From NCBI RefSeq assembly GCF_009914755.1, contig NC_060934.1: a stretch of DNA of 64,000 nucleotides; one strand, 5' to 3'. Source of the DNA: the human T2T-CHM13v2.0 reference genome, Homo sapiens. The position numbers were made by a program, and so were the translations under genes. A model generated the notes under the pieces. The model was not told where the DNA came from. It did no database searches and was given only the letters and a program-made list of their open reading frames with translations. Shown one piece after another: positions 27,200 to 30,410 of the stretch. The stretch's first letter is position 1. Each line of letters begins with the position of its first letter.

Positions 27200-27324
27200 G
27201 CATACTTTCTTTTACATGCTATTGGTTAACCATTAGGCAGTGTGCAGAGGGCATTGCCTCCATTGATTTTATAACCTGTGAGGGAAGAAGAAAGAAACAT
27301 TTGCTAGCCAGCTGAGTGACAGTG
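27200..27324 (+). promoter_or_regulatory. AKR1C-type proximal promoter and 5'UTR
   Basis: HNF1-like GGTTAACCATTAG (~27224), TTTATAA TATA-like element (~27268), GAAAGAAACATTTGCTA...GTGACAG 5'UTR resembling recalled AKR1C1/C2 5'UTRs. Confidence 0.7.
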
Positions 27325-27408
27325 ATGGATTCAAAACATCAGTGTTTGAAGCTAAATGATGGTCACTTCATGCCTGTCCTGGGATTTGGCACCTATGCAC
27401 CTCCAGAG
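27325..27408 (+). CDS. AKR1C3: Intact AKR1C coding exon 1 ([28 protein letters not shown]); probably the alternative upstream first exon of AKR1C3
   Basis: 84-nt phase-0 exon with GAG|GTAATA donor; 27/28 aa identical to the recalled AKR1C3 N-terminus (L for V at position 8). Assignment to an AKR1C3 transcript is recalled, not visible in the window. Confidence 0.75.
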
Positions 27409-29599
27409 GTAATAATAATGTTTTTGGTGCAGAGAGTTGAAAAGAGCAAAGCCAGAATAAGTGGAAGCTGACCTGGGTTGTCAGGTTTGTGTTCGTGTAT
27501 TACTCTGCATGACTCCAACCTGAGTTTCCCTAGGTTAAAGCTATACTGTATGTACAAAGAGAAAAAGTCAACCTTTGTTGTGCATAGAAGTCTGGTTGCA
27601 TGGTCATCTACTGTTTATTTGGGGCACTGTTTTTTTTCTTCTATTTATGTTTATTTCATAGCTTGTCAGAATCCATGAAACTCAGCAGTGAAAAACACTG
27701 CCTGCCTGCTCCTCTCTTGGAAATTGATGGCAATAGAAGTGGTTTCTCTGTTTCCTTCTACACTGAAGAAATCTTTTCTTCTTCTAAGAAGACATAATAC
27801 AGAAGAATTTTTGTGGCAAAATTTAGTGGAGATGGGGTGCATGAAATATGTTGGGAGAGTATCACTGTTCTGATATGCGGCCTTGAGCACCACATGGTAA
27901 TACTGGACCTGGACTAAAGAGAATTTCCCATGTACTACTCTCACCTCTGAGAAAATTACCAGAGGATATAAAATATCCTCATTTTAAGAGAAAAGAAAAA
28001 ACGACTAGAACCTAACAAGTTAAGTTTAAATTATTGGTCCTTGTTCATATGCATCAGATTTGTAACAAAATGATAGGAGTGGTCCTCTGACACAAATGTG
28101 AGCAAAATGGAGACTTTATTTTATAGACTAAACTATTTCTACACTGGAAGAAAACTTGTATTCCAAGACTGTCCTGAGACTACTATGTTTGTGATTAGGG
28201 ACTAGATACATGAAATTTGAGTCTCACTTTTCTCTCTATCAGTGTGTTCTGTGCAACATCACTGGGAGAGGACTCATAGGAGCTTGCACTGTATTCCTTC
28301 TGTAATTCCTTCCATGTACCTTTGTCCCTGTGTTAATTTCACTTTATTAAAAATATTTAGGACTATATATGTAACTATAGGTTGAGGTCAGTGTGGGTTA
28401 ACCTGTGCCTCTGCTCTCCTGACTCCATGGAACTTTCCAGAGCAGTCGACATCATTGCCAAATCTGCACCTTCCATGTAGGCCTGGTGTTTTTACTACTG
28501 TCTAGTGGACACACTGTGGATACTGCCCATGTGGCCGCATTAGATGTTTCCAAAATTTGTGCTTATATCATGTTCTCCCAAACCTGCTCAGCTCCTTATC
28601 AGATCAAAAACATTTCCATCAACCTTGTGGTCCAGGTGCCAATTCTCACCTTCTCCATATGGAATTGCTCACTAAATCCTGTCAATTCGGTGTCTTTACT
28701 CATTTCAAATCTCTTTCTTTTTTCTCTTTGGATGTTTGCACATGACCCAAACACTGTATTTGCCTCCAGAAAGGCTGCCTTAGTGGAGTGAATAGGAGCA
28801 CTTGGATTTAATTTTCTGCAATATGGAGATCTCAATTCTGAGAATAATGAAATTTTAAAATCAAAGAAGGAGTGTGGATGCAAAAGCCCCTTTGTTGGAA
28901 TAATCTATAGCCAACAAAAGGCATTTACTATTTCTTCATGCTTTGAAGGTTTTAGTAGTCATAGACAGTAACTCATGTAATGAGGGAAAACAGAAGTTAT
29001 GTAACTGCTGGCAGTGGAGATTTTAACAAGTAATAGAGATGATGAGATAATGTGTGAAAAACATAACAACAATGGCACATTGTAAGAACTCAAAAACTGG
29101 TAGATACCATTGTTGATATTTTATTAATATAGAGGAAAATAAAACATAAAAAGGAAATTATTAAATGAAAGGAAGAATAGCAAGCATTTGTAATTCTTAC
29201 CACCAATGAAATATTTAAGGATAAGTAGGCATTTGTTTTTCCCTTTATTTTTTGTGCTATTTCTACATATACATTTTTAATGCATTGCATATTCCTGGAT
29301 ATTGGACCCTGTATCATACACAACAGTTTACATTTCTGAAAATTACCAAATATGTTTCATAAGGTAGGCAGGCACTAGGTAATAAATAAAGTAATAAAAG
29401 ACAGCCTAATTGCTACCAGTAGCCATTCACACTCAAAATTATTTATTAGTGATGAGCGTATAACTTGCCTCTTCTTCTTCAAAGTAGGGCAGAAAGAGTT
29501 CCTACTTTCCTTGGGAATTTGAAATAGAAAAGGTCAGAATGACTCTTTGCTCTGTAGGCAGATGTACAGGAATGTTTTTGAAGATTTGACTGTGTGTGT

Positions 29600-29909
29600 G
29601 TTTTGTTTTGTTGTTTGTTTGTTTTGAGGCAGAGTTTCACTCTTGTTGCCCAGGCTGGAGTACAGTGGCGTGGTCTCGGCTAACTGCAACCTCCGCCTTC
29701 TGTGTTCAAATGATTCTCGTGTCTCAGCCTCCCAAGTAGTTGGAATTACAGGTGCCTGCCACCATACTCGCCTAATTTTTGTATTTTTTAGTAGAGACGG
29801 GGTTCCACCATGTTGGTCAGACTGGTCTCAAACTCCTGACCTCAGGTGATCCACTCACCTTGGCCTCCCAAAGTGTTGGGATTACAGGCATGAGCCACTA
29901 TGCCCAGCT
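29600..29909 (-). mobile_element. Alu (AluS-like)
   Basis: Full dimer in reverse with a (TTTG)n tail. Confidence 0.93.
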
Positions 29910-30142
29910 GACTTTGTGTTTTATGTATTAAGTTCCAGGCAGGGGAGTAGAATTGAATAATTTATTATTTTGATAATACAGATACTATAAAGTCATGCTC
30001 TCAAAAAATGCAGATTCTCCAGCAATCAGAATATGAACTTCTTAACATCCACACTAATGGCAGCTTCCTAGAAATCACTGTGCTACCCCCCAGTAATGGA
30101 ATCATTGCAGTTCATATCACGCATTATTCTTTCTTTCTTCAG

Positions 30143-30410
30143 TCTTGCTGGACACCCTGATTATCCATTTTCAGACAAATATTAACATGGAGGACTTTGC
30201 GTGAGTTCTACCAGAGGCCCTGTGTGTAGATGGTGACACAGAGGACGTCTTTATGCTAGTGATTAGACATACCGCCTTTGGCTAAATCTACCCTGCTTAG
30301 AGACTTCAGTTAACCAAATATAAGTCCACAGGCCATAAGGGAAAGACAATAAATTTGTTTTCTTTGAAATAATTCAGTGCTCTCTTCTAAAGATTCTTTA
30401 CCTACTTTGG
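30143..30410 (+). pseudogene. AKR1C terminal exon 9 with 3'UTR
   Basis: Acceptor ATTCTTTCTTTCTTCAG; 43-nt coding part T+LAGHPDYPFSDKY* (stop 30183-30185), matching AKR1C C-termini (HPxYPFSDEY*); 3'UTR ATGGTGACACAGAGGA...CTAAAGATTCTT as in AKR1C mRNAs. Confidence 0.88.
30348..30353 (+). terminator. Polyadenylation signal AATAAA
   Basis: AATAAA followed by T/GT-rich sequence within the AKR1C-type 3'UTR. Confidence 0.6.

What the first reader, a model, noticed from the sequence alone, without database searches (positions are those of the whole stretch)
27200..30410. Two-exon AKR1C mini-gene (exon 1 + exon 9, exons 2-8 missing) with intact signals: candidate splice/polyA switch for AKR1C3
Seen: an AKR1C-type promoter and 5'UTR, an undamaged 84-nt exon 1 with GT donor, and only 2.7 kb later a strong acceptor, the AKR1C last exon (LAGHPDYPFSDKY*), 3'UTR and AATAAA. 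No sequence resembling exons 2-8 lies between. Known: AKR1C genes have 9 exons, exon 1 ends in phase 0 and exon 9 starts in phase 2. Inference: this is an internally deleted paralogue whose exon 1 could (a) splice to a distal AKR1C exon 2 beyond the window, giving a full-length enzyme with V8L (I recall an annotated AKR1C3 variant with an upstream first exon), or (b) splice to the local exon 9 and polyadenylate. The local exon would then act as a premature-termination decoy tuning output from this promoter.
Basis: partly seen in the sequence, partly recalled or inferred. Interest (0 to 1): 0.8.

Follow-up and report, generated by a model that had tools for sequence, protein, structure and literature searches.

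The report
Gutted AKR1C gene copy upstream of AKR1C3
This is the leftover of an old extra copy of an AKR1C steroid-reductase gene that lost its seven middle exons in one deletion; its promoter and first exon are already annotated as an upstream start for AKR1C3, while its last exon looks like a drifting relic that could still end some transcripts early.

Summary
Window 26154-30492, continuing at 39720-42028 behind a 9.2-kb endogenous-retrovirus insertion, is colinear with AKR1C1-4. It runs promoter, exon 1, intron 1, then jumps at 28383/28384 into intron 8, exon 9 and the 3' flank.

One deletion with 2-nt (TG) microhomology removed exons 2-8, about 10.5 kb in AKR1C1 coordinates. No trace of exons 2-8 is left anywhere in the window.

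Trees place three of four segments as sister to AKR1C1/AKR1C2, with the fourth unresolved. This fits one dead paralogue, not a fusion of two.

Reading (a) is already annotated. Exon 27294-27408 is a RefSeq AKR1C3 first exon, and joined to AKR1C3 exons 2-9 it gives 323 aa with only V8L. Its coding part has changed at 1 of 70 sites in this lineage, against 104 of 1101 in the flanks.

Reading (b), a terminal-exon decoy, stays untested. The acceptor, AATAAA and U-rich downstream sequence are intact and match AKR1C3's own 3' end. However, the exon evolves neutrally, no transcript is annotated, and I had no RNA data.

Verdict: a real but ordinary gene relic with a co-opted first exon. Interest is modest.

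The parts
26154..27293 (+). AKR1C-type proximal promoter, 1.14 kb of homology upstream of the start site
   Evidence: Colinear with the regions upstream of AKR1C1, C2, C3 and C4, at 69-78% identity. A conserved ATTGGTTAACCA block is kept in the window, C1, C2 and C3. Homology stops at 26154, where a retrovirus-like block begins.
27294..27408 (+). Exon 1' (5'UTR 27294-27324, coding 27325-27408), annotated as an alternative first exon of AKR1C3
   Evidence: Listed in the hub's RefSeq table. Translation. The annotated AKR1C1 start aligns to 27295. The coding part is 92-93% identical to C1, C2 and C3, against 75-84% in the flanks. Window-specific changes are 1 of 70 against 104 of 1101. The donor is GAG|GTAATA, identical to AKR1C4's.
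27409..28384 (+). Intron-1-derived part of the hybrid intron; it also lacks about 0.84 kb that C1-C4 all carry, at window 28233-28242
   Evidence: AKR1C1 4964643-4965485 has no counterpart in the window.
28383..28384 (+). Deletion junction joining intron 1 to intron 8, with TG microhomology
   Evidence: Pairwise alignments. Intron-1 homology ends at ...ATAGGTTG (28384). Intron-8 homology starts at TGAGGTCAG (28383). The span lost is AKR1C1 4965957-4976448, which is 10,492 bp.
28385..30142 (+). Intron-8-derived part of the hybrid intron, including an antisense Alu-like insert at 29595-29915
   Evidence: Homology starts 181 bp after AKR1C3 exon 8, which ends at 5106171; homology begins at 5106352.
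30143..30372 (+). Exon 9' relic: coding remnant 30143-30185, 3'UTR, AATAAA at 30348-30353, predicted cleavage near 30372
   Evidence: AKR1C3's annotated 3' end (chr10:5108188) aligns to window 30372. There is no sequence constraint.
30373..30492 (+). 3' flank homologous to the AKR1C1/2/4 3' flank, up to the retroviral integration site
30493..39719 (-). 9.2-kb endogenous retrovirus inserted 120 nt after the predicted poly(A) site; not part of the AKR1C unit, but it interrupts it
   Evidence: Long terminal direct repeats. The 4-bp duplication GTGG flanks it. Minus-strand ORF fragments match TLV_coat, RNase_H, RVT_1 and zf-CCHC. The site is empty in the chr10:4.92-Mb copy.
39720..42028 (+). Continuation of the AKR1C 3' flank behind the retrovirus
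   Evidence: 39721-42028 matches AKR1C1 4978387-4980688 at 74% over 2391 columns.

Best explanation
The region is the relic of a fifth AKR1C paralogue, sister to the ancestor of AKR1C1 and AKR1C2.

A single end-joining deletion, with 2-nt microhomology and no repeat at the junction, fused intron 1 to intron 8 and removed exons 2-8. These exons carry almost the whole of the enzyme. The relic therefore cannot encode a reductase on its own.

Its core promoter and exon 1 survive intact. They work as the annotated upstream alternative first exon of AKR1C3. The donor at 27408 is in phase 0 and can splice across 47.5 kb to AKR1C3 exon 2, giving a full-length enzyme that differs only by V8L.

The exon 9', 3'UTR and AATAAA part is a neutrally drifting leftover. 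Its acceptor and poly(A) signal happen to be intact. It may end a share of transcripts from this promoter as a roughly 345-nt, 33-codon RNA, but nothing shows that this share is large or selected for.

Shown: the structure, the breakpoint, the phylogenetic placement, the coding compatibility and the substitution counts. Taken from annotation: use of exon 1'. Inferred: continued selection on exon 1', and any use of exon 9'.
For: - Colinearity with AKR1C1-4, with one jump from intron 1 to intron 8.
- Junction with TG microhomology.
- No exon 2-8 remnant in the window.
- ML trees place the relic with (C1,C2) in three of four segments: the 5' part at 100% bootstrap, the exon 9 part at 80% and the 3' flank at 95%. 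K2P distance to C1 is 0.23-0.26 in all four segments.
- The AKR1C1 start site aligns 1 nt from the annotated start of exon 1'.
- Exon 1' joined to AKR1C3 exons 2-9 gives 323 aa with V8L only.
- Window-lineage changes in the exon 1 coding part are 1 of 70. The flanks show 104 of 1101 (binomial P 0.008, Fisher P 0.016). The working genes show similar low counts: C1 3 of 72, C3 2 of 71, C4 4 of 73.
- Exon 9' is neutral. The window differs at 3 of 31 coding and 14 of 113 3'UTR sites where C1, C3 and C4 agree, against 11 of 115 in the adjoining intron.
- The hub's RefSeq table lists 27294-27408 as an AKR1C3 exon and lists no transcript ending near 30372.
Against: - The low divergence of exon 1' does not prove selection after the deletion. 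If the paralogue stayed intact for much of its branch, exon 1 would have been protected during that time. The date of the deletion is unknown.
- The test rests on 70 sites.
- The intron 8 segment does not resolve the tree (relic with C3 at 54% bootstrap). Some gene conversion or a mixed history cannot be excluded.
- I saw no RNA evidence of any kind. How much this promoter is used, and in which tissues, is unknown.
- On kinetic grounds, a strong acceptor plus AATAAA lies 2.7 kb from the donor, against 47.5 kb to the productive acceptor. This would be expected to capture many transcripts, which argues against treating exon 9' as inert.
Confidence: 0.7

Rival explanations
1. Attenuator or decoy, the first reader's option (b). 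Most transcripts from the upstream promoter splice 27408 to 30143 and are polyadenylated near 30372. The amount of AKR1C3-V8L mRNA would then be set by how often this relic terminal exon is skipped.
For: - The acceptor CATTATTCTTTCTTTCTTCAG|T and the AATAAA plus TTTGTTTTCTTTG context are intact.
- They are positionally homologous to AKR1C3's own working terminal exon. The AKR1C3 3' end aligns to window 30372.
- The local acceptor is 2,734 nt from the donor, against 47,525 nt for AKR1C3 exon 2. It is therefore transcribed much earlier (inference from co-transcriptional splicing).
- The stop falls in the last exon, so nonsense-mediated decay is not expected (inference).
Against: - No such transcript appears in the hub's RefSeq table.
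- The predicted lncRNA LOC107984198 crosses the region and skips this acceptor (14096 to 56440 in the hub table).
- The exon body evolves at least as fast as its dead sister copy: 12 against 4 lineage-specific changes in 205 sites.
- Keeping 8 signal bases (AG plus AATAAA) intact at roughly 10% divergence has about a 0.4 chance under neutrality (my arithmetic). Intact signals are therefore not evidence of selection.
- Usage was not testable here.
Confidence: 0.25
2. Inert pseudogene fragment. The promoter is essentially silent, the RefSeq upstream-exon transcript is rare transcriptional noise, and exon 1' looks conserved only because the deletion is recent relative to the age of the paralogue.
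For: - The exon 1 test cannot separate late deletion from continued selection (reasoning).
- Another lone exon-1-like relic, at 2669-2752, also keeps an open 28-codon frame. An open short frame therefore means little.
- The AKR1C-type promoter homology is cut to 1.14 kb by a retroviral block.
- No paper found or 51 discusses this exon.
Against: - The hub table gives the exon as part of one of three AKR1C3 RefSeq transcripts. A microarray table in PMC11216254 lists three NM_ accessions for AKR1C3 (passage seen). NM_ records are built on transcript evidence (my knowledge).
- The start codon, a purine at -3, the GT donor, the CCAAT-type block and the start-site position are all retained.
Confidence: 0.2
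3. Fusion of two neighbouring paralogues. A deletion between intron 1 of one gene and intron 8 of the next gene in a tandem array removed the rest of both, so exon 1' and exon 9' come from different genes.
For: The intron 8 segment groups weakly with AKR1C3 (54% bootstrap) rather than with C1/C2.
Against: - The 5' part (100%), the exon 9 part (80%) and the 3' flank (95%) all place the relic as sister to (C1,C2).
- Branch lengths are similar, at 0.12-0.13, and K2P distance to C1 is 0.23-0.26 throughout.
Confidence: 0.05

Closest known systems
AKR1C1 and AKR1C2 (the nearest working paralogues), and AKR1C3 (the gene that uses the exon)
   Same: - The promoter, exon 1, intron 1, intron 8, exon 9 and 3' flank are colinear, and the start site sits at the same position.
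- The exon 1 peptide differs from AKR1C3's by one residue.
   Different: - Exons 2-8 are absent. In a working AKR1C gene they make up 845 of the 972 coding bases.
- The Pfam Aldo_ket_red search of the whole genome reported no match inside the window.
Variable-first-exon genes such as the UGT1A and clustered protocadherin loci (recalled, not tested here)
   Same: Two first exons, each with its own promoter, can join the same set of downstream exons.
   Different: - There are only two alternatives here.
- The upstream one is the leftover of a whole decayed gene rather than a duplicated exon, and it changes one residue only.
Alternative last exons and intronic polyadenylation that cut transcripts short. 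One example is the CSTF3 intron-3 site (PMC3708835, abstract seen in the listing).
   Same: An acceptor plus a poly(A) signal inside the first long intron of the transcription unit could produce a short RNA without the main protein.
   Different: Use of the site is not shown here, and the sequence shows no conservation beyond neutral expectation.
The chr10:4.92-Mb inverted duplicate of parts of this window ('P492'). It may belong to what is annotated as AKR1C6P, but I did not check that name.
   Same: It is 89% identical over window 28938-30492, including the exon 9 relic and its acceptor.
   Different: - It lacks exon 1' and the promoter.
- It lacks the retroviral insertion.
- Its AATAAA has mutated to AATATT.

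Membership tests
AKR1C gene family (as a duplicated, non-processed gene copy) | Genomic homology that includes promoter and intron sequence, not only exons | tested here: met
   colinear blastn matches to AKR1C1-4 over 26154-30492 and 39721-42028.
AKR1C gene family (as an enzyme-coding member) | Exons 2-8, which encode the bulk of the aldo-keto reductase domain | tested here: not met
   no tblastn match to exons 2-8 anywhere in the window at E below 1; no Pfam PF00248 match was reported inside the window.
Alternative first exon of AKR1C3 | An annotated transcript that uses the exon | not testable with these tools
   Taken from the hub's RefSeq table only (27294-27408 listed under 'exons of other transcripts'). 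I could not view the transcript record or any RNA data.
Alternative first exon of AKR1C3 | Start codon, GT donor and a phase compatible with AKR1C3 exon 2 | tested here: met
   phase 0 to phase 0; the product is 323 aa with one stop at the end and V8L only.
Alternative first exon of AKR1C3 | Evolutionary constraint on the exon after the deletion | tested here: inconclusive
   1 of 70 against 104 of 1101 window-specific changes (P about 0.01). The date of the deletion is unknown, so the constraint may predate it.
Alternative last exon / intronic polyadenylation site | Acceptor with a pyrimidine tract, AATAAA and a U/GU-rich downstream element | tested here: met
   AATAAA is shared with AKR1C3 and AKR1C4. 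The AKR1C3 3' end aligns to 30372.
Alternative last exon / intronic polyadenylation site | Observed 27408-to-30143 junctions and 3' ends near 30372 | not testable with these tools
   No RNA-seq, 3'-seq or CAGE data were available. Nothing is annotated in the hub table. The one supplement searched (PMC12548281, file cut when stored) had no AKR1C3 row.
Alternative last exon / intronic polyadenylation site | Signals conserved beyond neutral expectation | tested here: not met
   the exon 9' body has 12 window-specific changes in 205 sites, against 4 in the sister copy. There were 0 changes in the 22-site acceptor block in either copy. The sister copy lost AATAAA and the window kept it, but this is a sample of one.
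Processed (retrotransposed) pseudogene | No introns and no promoter homology | tested here: not met
   intron 1, intron 8 and promoter sequence are all retained.

The most novel reading that the evidence does not exclude
The relic terminal exon is not inert. It ends a large share of transcripts from an AKR1C1/2-type upstream promoter as a roughly 345-nt RNA with a 33-codon frame. Production of AKR1C3 (V8L) from that promoter would then be governed by a splice-versus-polyadenylation choice. Changes in U1 or cleavage-factor activity could shift that choice, for example in tumours that over-express AKR1C3. A dead paralogue would thus supply both an extra promoter and a built-in brake to its neighbour.
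Probability: 0.2. Interest if true: 0.55.

Novelty: new member of a known kind. Interest (0 to 1): 0.3.

Why it matters
AKR1C3 is a drug target in hormone-dependent and drug-resistant cancers, so every route to its expression is of practical interest.

The upstream first exon comes from a dead gene whose closest relatives are AKR1C1 and AKR1C2. That origin suggests AKR1C3 can be driven from a promoter of a different regulatory type than its own.

The same origin places an intact terminal exon in the path of those transcripts, which could limit their yield. Both points can be checked with public RNA data in an afternoon.

As evolution, it is a clean example of a neighbour adopting the promoter and first exon of a gutted paralogue. 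That kind of event is known, so the case is illustrative rather than surprising.

Tried and rejected
- **Retrocopies as probes.** I tried retrocopies from the Pfam genome search as cDNA-like probes for exon mapping. The only matches were to interspersed repeats, so this was useless. I then used the translated AKR1B-like retrocopy, with stops written as X, which located most exons. Finally I used a spliced AKR1C3 model read from the genome.
- **Further cluster members.** Only the 4.92-Mb region was fetched. AKR1C8 and the other relics are therefore missing from the trees.
- **Repeat-mediated deletion.** Rejected. No repeat lies at the junction in the window, only 2 nt of microhomology.
- **Processed pseudogene.** Rejected, because introns and promoter are present.
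- **Rfam.** A gathering-threshold scan of 26000-30600 gave 0 matches.
- **Literature.** Nine searches found no paper that describes this relic, the upstream exon or a short transcript. Two of these searches were too loosely framed to force AKR1C3 into the results. From PMC10655400, PMC11954848 and PMC11216254 I saw passages only.
- **Signal retention as evidence of selection.** Considered and dropped, because the chance of retention under neutrality is about 0.4.
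Full report
**What is there.**
- The window is human chr10:5022001-5086000 (T2T), between AKR1C2 and the body of AKR1C3 (hub table; one search confirms the placement).
- At 27325-27408 the plus strand reads [28 protein letters not shown] and is followed by GTAATA.
- At 30143-30185 it reads one base plus LAGHPDYPFSDKY and a stop, behind a pyrimidine tract ending in CAG. AATAAA follows at 30348-30353.

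**Mapping against the working genes.**
- I fetched the genomic loci of AKR1C1, C2, C3 and C4 from the same assembly and aligned them to window 25001-32000 and to the whole window.
- Window 26154-28384 is colinear with the promoter, exon 1 and intron 1 of all four genes. An example is AKR1C1 4962549-4965956, at 75% over the main 2181-column block.
- At 28383/28384 the match jumps to AKR1C1 4976449 and runs through intron 8, exon 9 and the 3' flank to 30492, at about 80%.
- I located the exons in two steps. First I used tblastn with a translated AKR1B-like retrocopy. Then I found the unique GT-AG, open-frame solution for AKR1C3 using the family's exon sizes, which gives 323 aa.
- Intron-1 homology ends about 260-290 bp before exon 2. 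Intron-8 homology starts 181 bp after AKR1C3 exon 8.
- The gap is 10,492 bp in AKR1C1 coordinates and holds exons 2-8.
- At the junction, the intron-1 match ends ...ATAGGTTG and the intron-8 match begins TGAGGTCAG. Only TG is shared and no repeat is present. This is the signature of end joining, not of recombination between repeats.
- The window also lacks about 0.84 kb of intron 1 that all four genes carry.
- An Alu-like element at 29595-29915 is absent from the four genes at that site.
- The hybrid intron of 2,734 nt is thus fully accounted for.
- tblastn with the AKR1C3 protein finds nothing resembling exons 2-8 anywhere in the 64 kb.

**Extent of the unit and its neighbours.**
- The AKR1C homology resumes at 39721 and runs to 42028, matching AKR1C1 4978387-4980688.
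- The 9.2 kb in between has long terminal direct repeats and a 4-bp flanking duplication, GTGG.
- It also carries minus-strand ORF fragments matching a retroviral envelope, RNase H, reverse transcriptase and a zinc knuckle. It is an endogenous retrovirus that landed 120 nt behind the relic's poly(A) site.
- Upstream, AKR1C-type homology stops at 26154. Window 13600-26153 is a dispersed repeat (67 matches in the genome) with betaretrovirus-like ORF fragments.
- Further upstream, 11569-13599 is again colinear with the region upstream of AKR1C2's coding exon 1. That stretch overlaps the first exons of the lncRNA LOC107984198 in the hub table.

**Origin.**
- K2P distances from the relic to AKR1C1 are 0.23-0.26 in all four segments tested. 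Distances are 0.21-0.33 to AKR1C3 and 0.30-0.35 to AKR1C4.
- ML trees rooted on C4 give these placements of the relic:

| Segment | Placement of the relic | Bootstrap |
|---|---|---|
| 5' part | sister to (C1,C2) | 100% |
| Exon 9 part | sister to (C1,C2) | 80% |
| 3' flank | sister to (C1,C2) | 95% |
| Intron 8 | with C3 (unresolved) | 54% |

- The two halves therefore most likely come from one gene, a fifth paralogue that split from the AKR1C1/2 lineage long before C1 and C2 split from each other (C1-C2 distance 0.02-0.055).

**A younger copy.**
- A genome-wide DNA search found a 91% identical copy of the exon 9 region at chr10:4922627-4923176 on the minus strand.
- The surrounding 20 kb is an inverted mosaic of window segments at 83-94% identity.
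- That copy holds window 28938-30492 joined directly to 39720 onward, so the retroviral site is empty there. It lacks exon 1' and the promoter. By tblastn it carries only the exon 9 piece.
- It serves as a non-functional sister for rate comparisons.

**Exon 1'.**
- The hub table lists 27294-27408 as an exon of another AKR1C3 transcript. AKR1C1's annotated start aligns to window 27295, so the start site is the ancestral one.
- Joined to AKR1C3 exons 2-9, the exon gives 323 aa with V8L as the only difference.
- The coding part is 92-93% identical to C1, C2 and C3, while the flanks are 75-84%.
- I counted only sites where C1, C3 and C4 agree. The window differs at 1 of 70 coding sites against 104 of 1101 flank sites (binomial P 0.008, Fisher P 0.016).
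- The working genes show 3 of 72, 2 of 71 and 4 of 73 by the same count.
- This fits continued purifying selection on exon 1'. It would also follow if the paralogue stayed intact for much of its history and the deletion is late. I cannot date the deletion without other primates.
- No near-identity to any single paralogue suggests recent gene conversion.

**Exon 9'.**
- The acceptor, the AATAAA and the U-rich downstream stretch are intact. AKR1C3's annotated 3' end aligns to window 30372, 19 nt after the AATAAA.
- AKR1C3 and AKR1C4 share AATAAA at this position. AKR1C1/2 read AATAAT and the 4.92-Mb copy reads AATATT.
- The exon body shows no constraint. Where C1, C3 and C4 agree, the window differs at 3 of 31 coding sites, 14 of 113 3'UTR sites and 11 of 115 sites in the adjoining intron.
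- Since the split from the 4.92-Mb copy, the window has 12 lineage-specific changes in the 205 exon sites, against 4 in the copy.
- At about 10% lineage divergence, the chance that the 8 key signal bases stay intact is about 0.4. Their survival therefore says nothing about selection (my arithmetic).
- If exon 1' splices to exon 9', the frame runs 5 codons into exon 9' (SCWTP, then a stop). This gives a 33-codon frame in a roughly 345-nt RNA.

**How it most likely works.**
- The promoter and exon 1' act as an upstream alternative start of AKR1C3 (annotation plus compatibility shown here).
- The relic terminal exon lies in the path of these transcripts, 2.7 kb from the donor. The productive acceptor is 47.5 kb away.
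- On general kinetic grounds it should capture some transcripts, but I had no RNA data.
- RefSeq lists no such transcript. The predicted lncRNA that crosses the region skips this acceptor (hub table).
- I therefore rate 'relic with co-opted first exon, terminal exon of unknown and unselected use' at 0.7. I rate 'terminal exon takes a large share and sets output' at 0.2-0.25.

**Literature.**
- Nine full-text searches found no description of this relic or of the upstream exon.
- PMC10655400 (passages seen) gives the gene order AKR1C6P, AKR1C1, AKR1C2, AKR1C3, AKR1C8P and calls the region a segmental duplication.
- PMC11216254 (passage seen) lists NM_001253908, NM_001253909 and NM_003739 for AKR1C3.
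- PMC11954848 (passages seen) used NM_001253908.2 for over-expression. That NM_001253908 is the transcript with the upstream exon is my recollection, not a tool result.
- GENCODE and pseudogene catalogues could not be consulted, so an existing annotation of the relic there cannot be excluded.

**Verdict.** The feature is real and now precisely mapped. Its main functional reading is already in RefSeq, and the decoy idea remains an open, easily testable hypothesis. This is a new member of a known kind, of modest interest.

Noticed in passing
window 2669-2752 (+): A second, more diverged exon-1-like relic ([28 protein letters not shown]...) with an open frame. Its DNA resembles short exon-1-only matches at chr10:5186790-5186845(-) and 5290161-5290216(-).
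   Followed up: partly
window 30493-39719 (-): A 9.2-kb gammaretrovirus-like endogenous retrovirus with broken ORFs, terminal repeats and the 4-bp duplication GTGG. It sits 120 nt behind the relic's poly(A) site and is absent from the 4.92-Mb copy, so it is younger than that duplication. By recollection the terminal repeat looks like the HERV9 type; this was not tested.
   Followed up: partly
window 13600-26153: A block absent from the AKR1C1/2 upstream regions. It is a dispersed repeat with betaretrovirus-like ORF fragments on the minus strand (reverse transcriptase, dUTPase, gag zinc finger, HERV-K-type envelope). It also has a protease/G-patch fragment on the plus strand and 188-nt direct repeats at 16792 and 25899. 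It cuts the relic's promoter homology to 1.14 kb. An exon of lncRNA LOC107984198 (17066-19146) lies inside it.
   Followed up: partly
chr10:4918978-4932000 (loci L027, L028), minus orientation: An inverted mosaic duplicate of window segments 4171-11788, 28938-30492 and 39720-43203, at 83-94% identity. It carries a lone exon 9 relic whose AATAAA has become AATATT.
   Followed up: partly
window 11569-13599 (+): Colinear with the region upstream of AKR1C2's coding exon 1 (chr10:5010978-5006024, 73-79%). It overlaps the first exons of lncRNA LOC107984198 (11547-11848, 11982-12206). The lncRNA's 5' end may therefore be the relic of the dead paralogue's distal promoter and 5'UTR exons.
   Followed up: no
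window 29595-29915: An antisense Alu-like element inside the hybrid intron, 230 nt upstream of the exon 9' acceptor. It is absent at that site in AKR1C1-4 but present in the 4.92-Mb copy. Antisense Alus can supply cryptic splice sites (my knowledge).
   Followed up: no
chr10:5135439-5135867(-), 5163304-5163483(-), 5186790-5186845(-), outside the window: Inside the annotated AKR1C8 span there are two exon-1-like copies on either side of an exon-2-like Pfam match with an in-frame TAG. This suggests AKR1C8 too has relic 5' exons upstream of a more complete unit, the same pattern as at AKR1C3.
   Followed up: no
loci L018 and L019 (AKR1C1/AKR1C2 3' ends), aligned to window 30348-30353: AKR1C1 and AKR1C2 read AATAAT where AKR1C3, AKR1C4 and the relic read AATAAA.
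   Followed up: no
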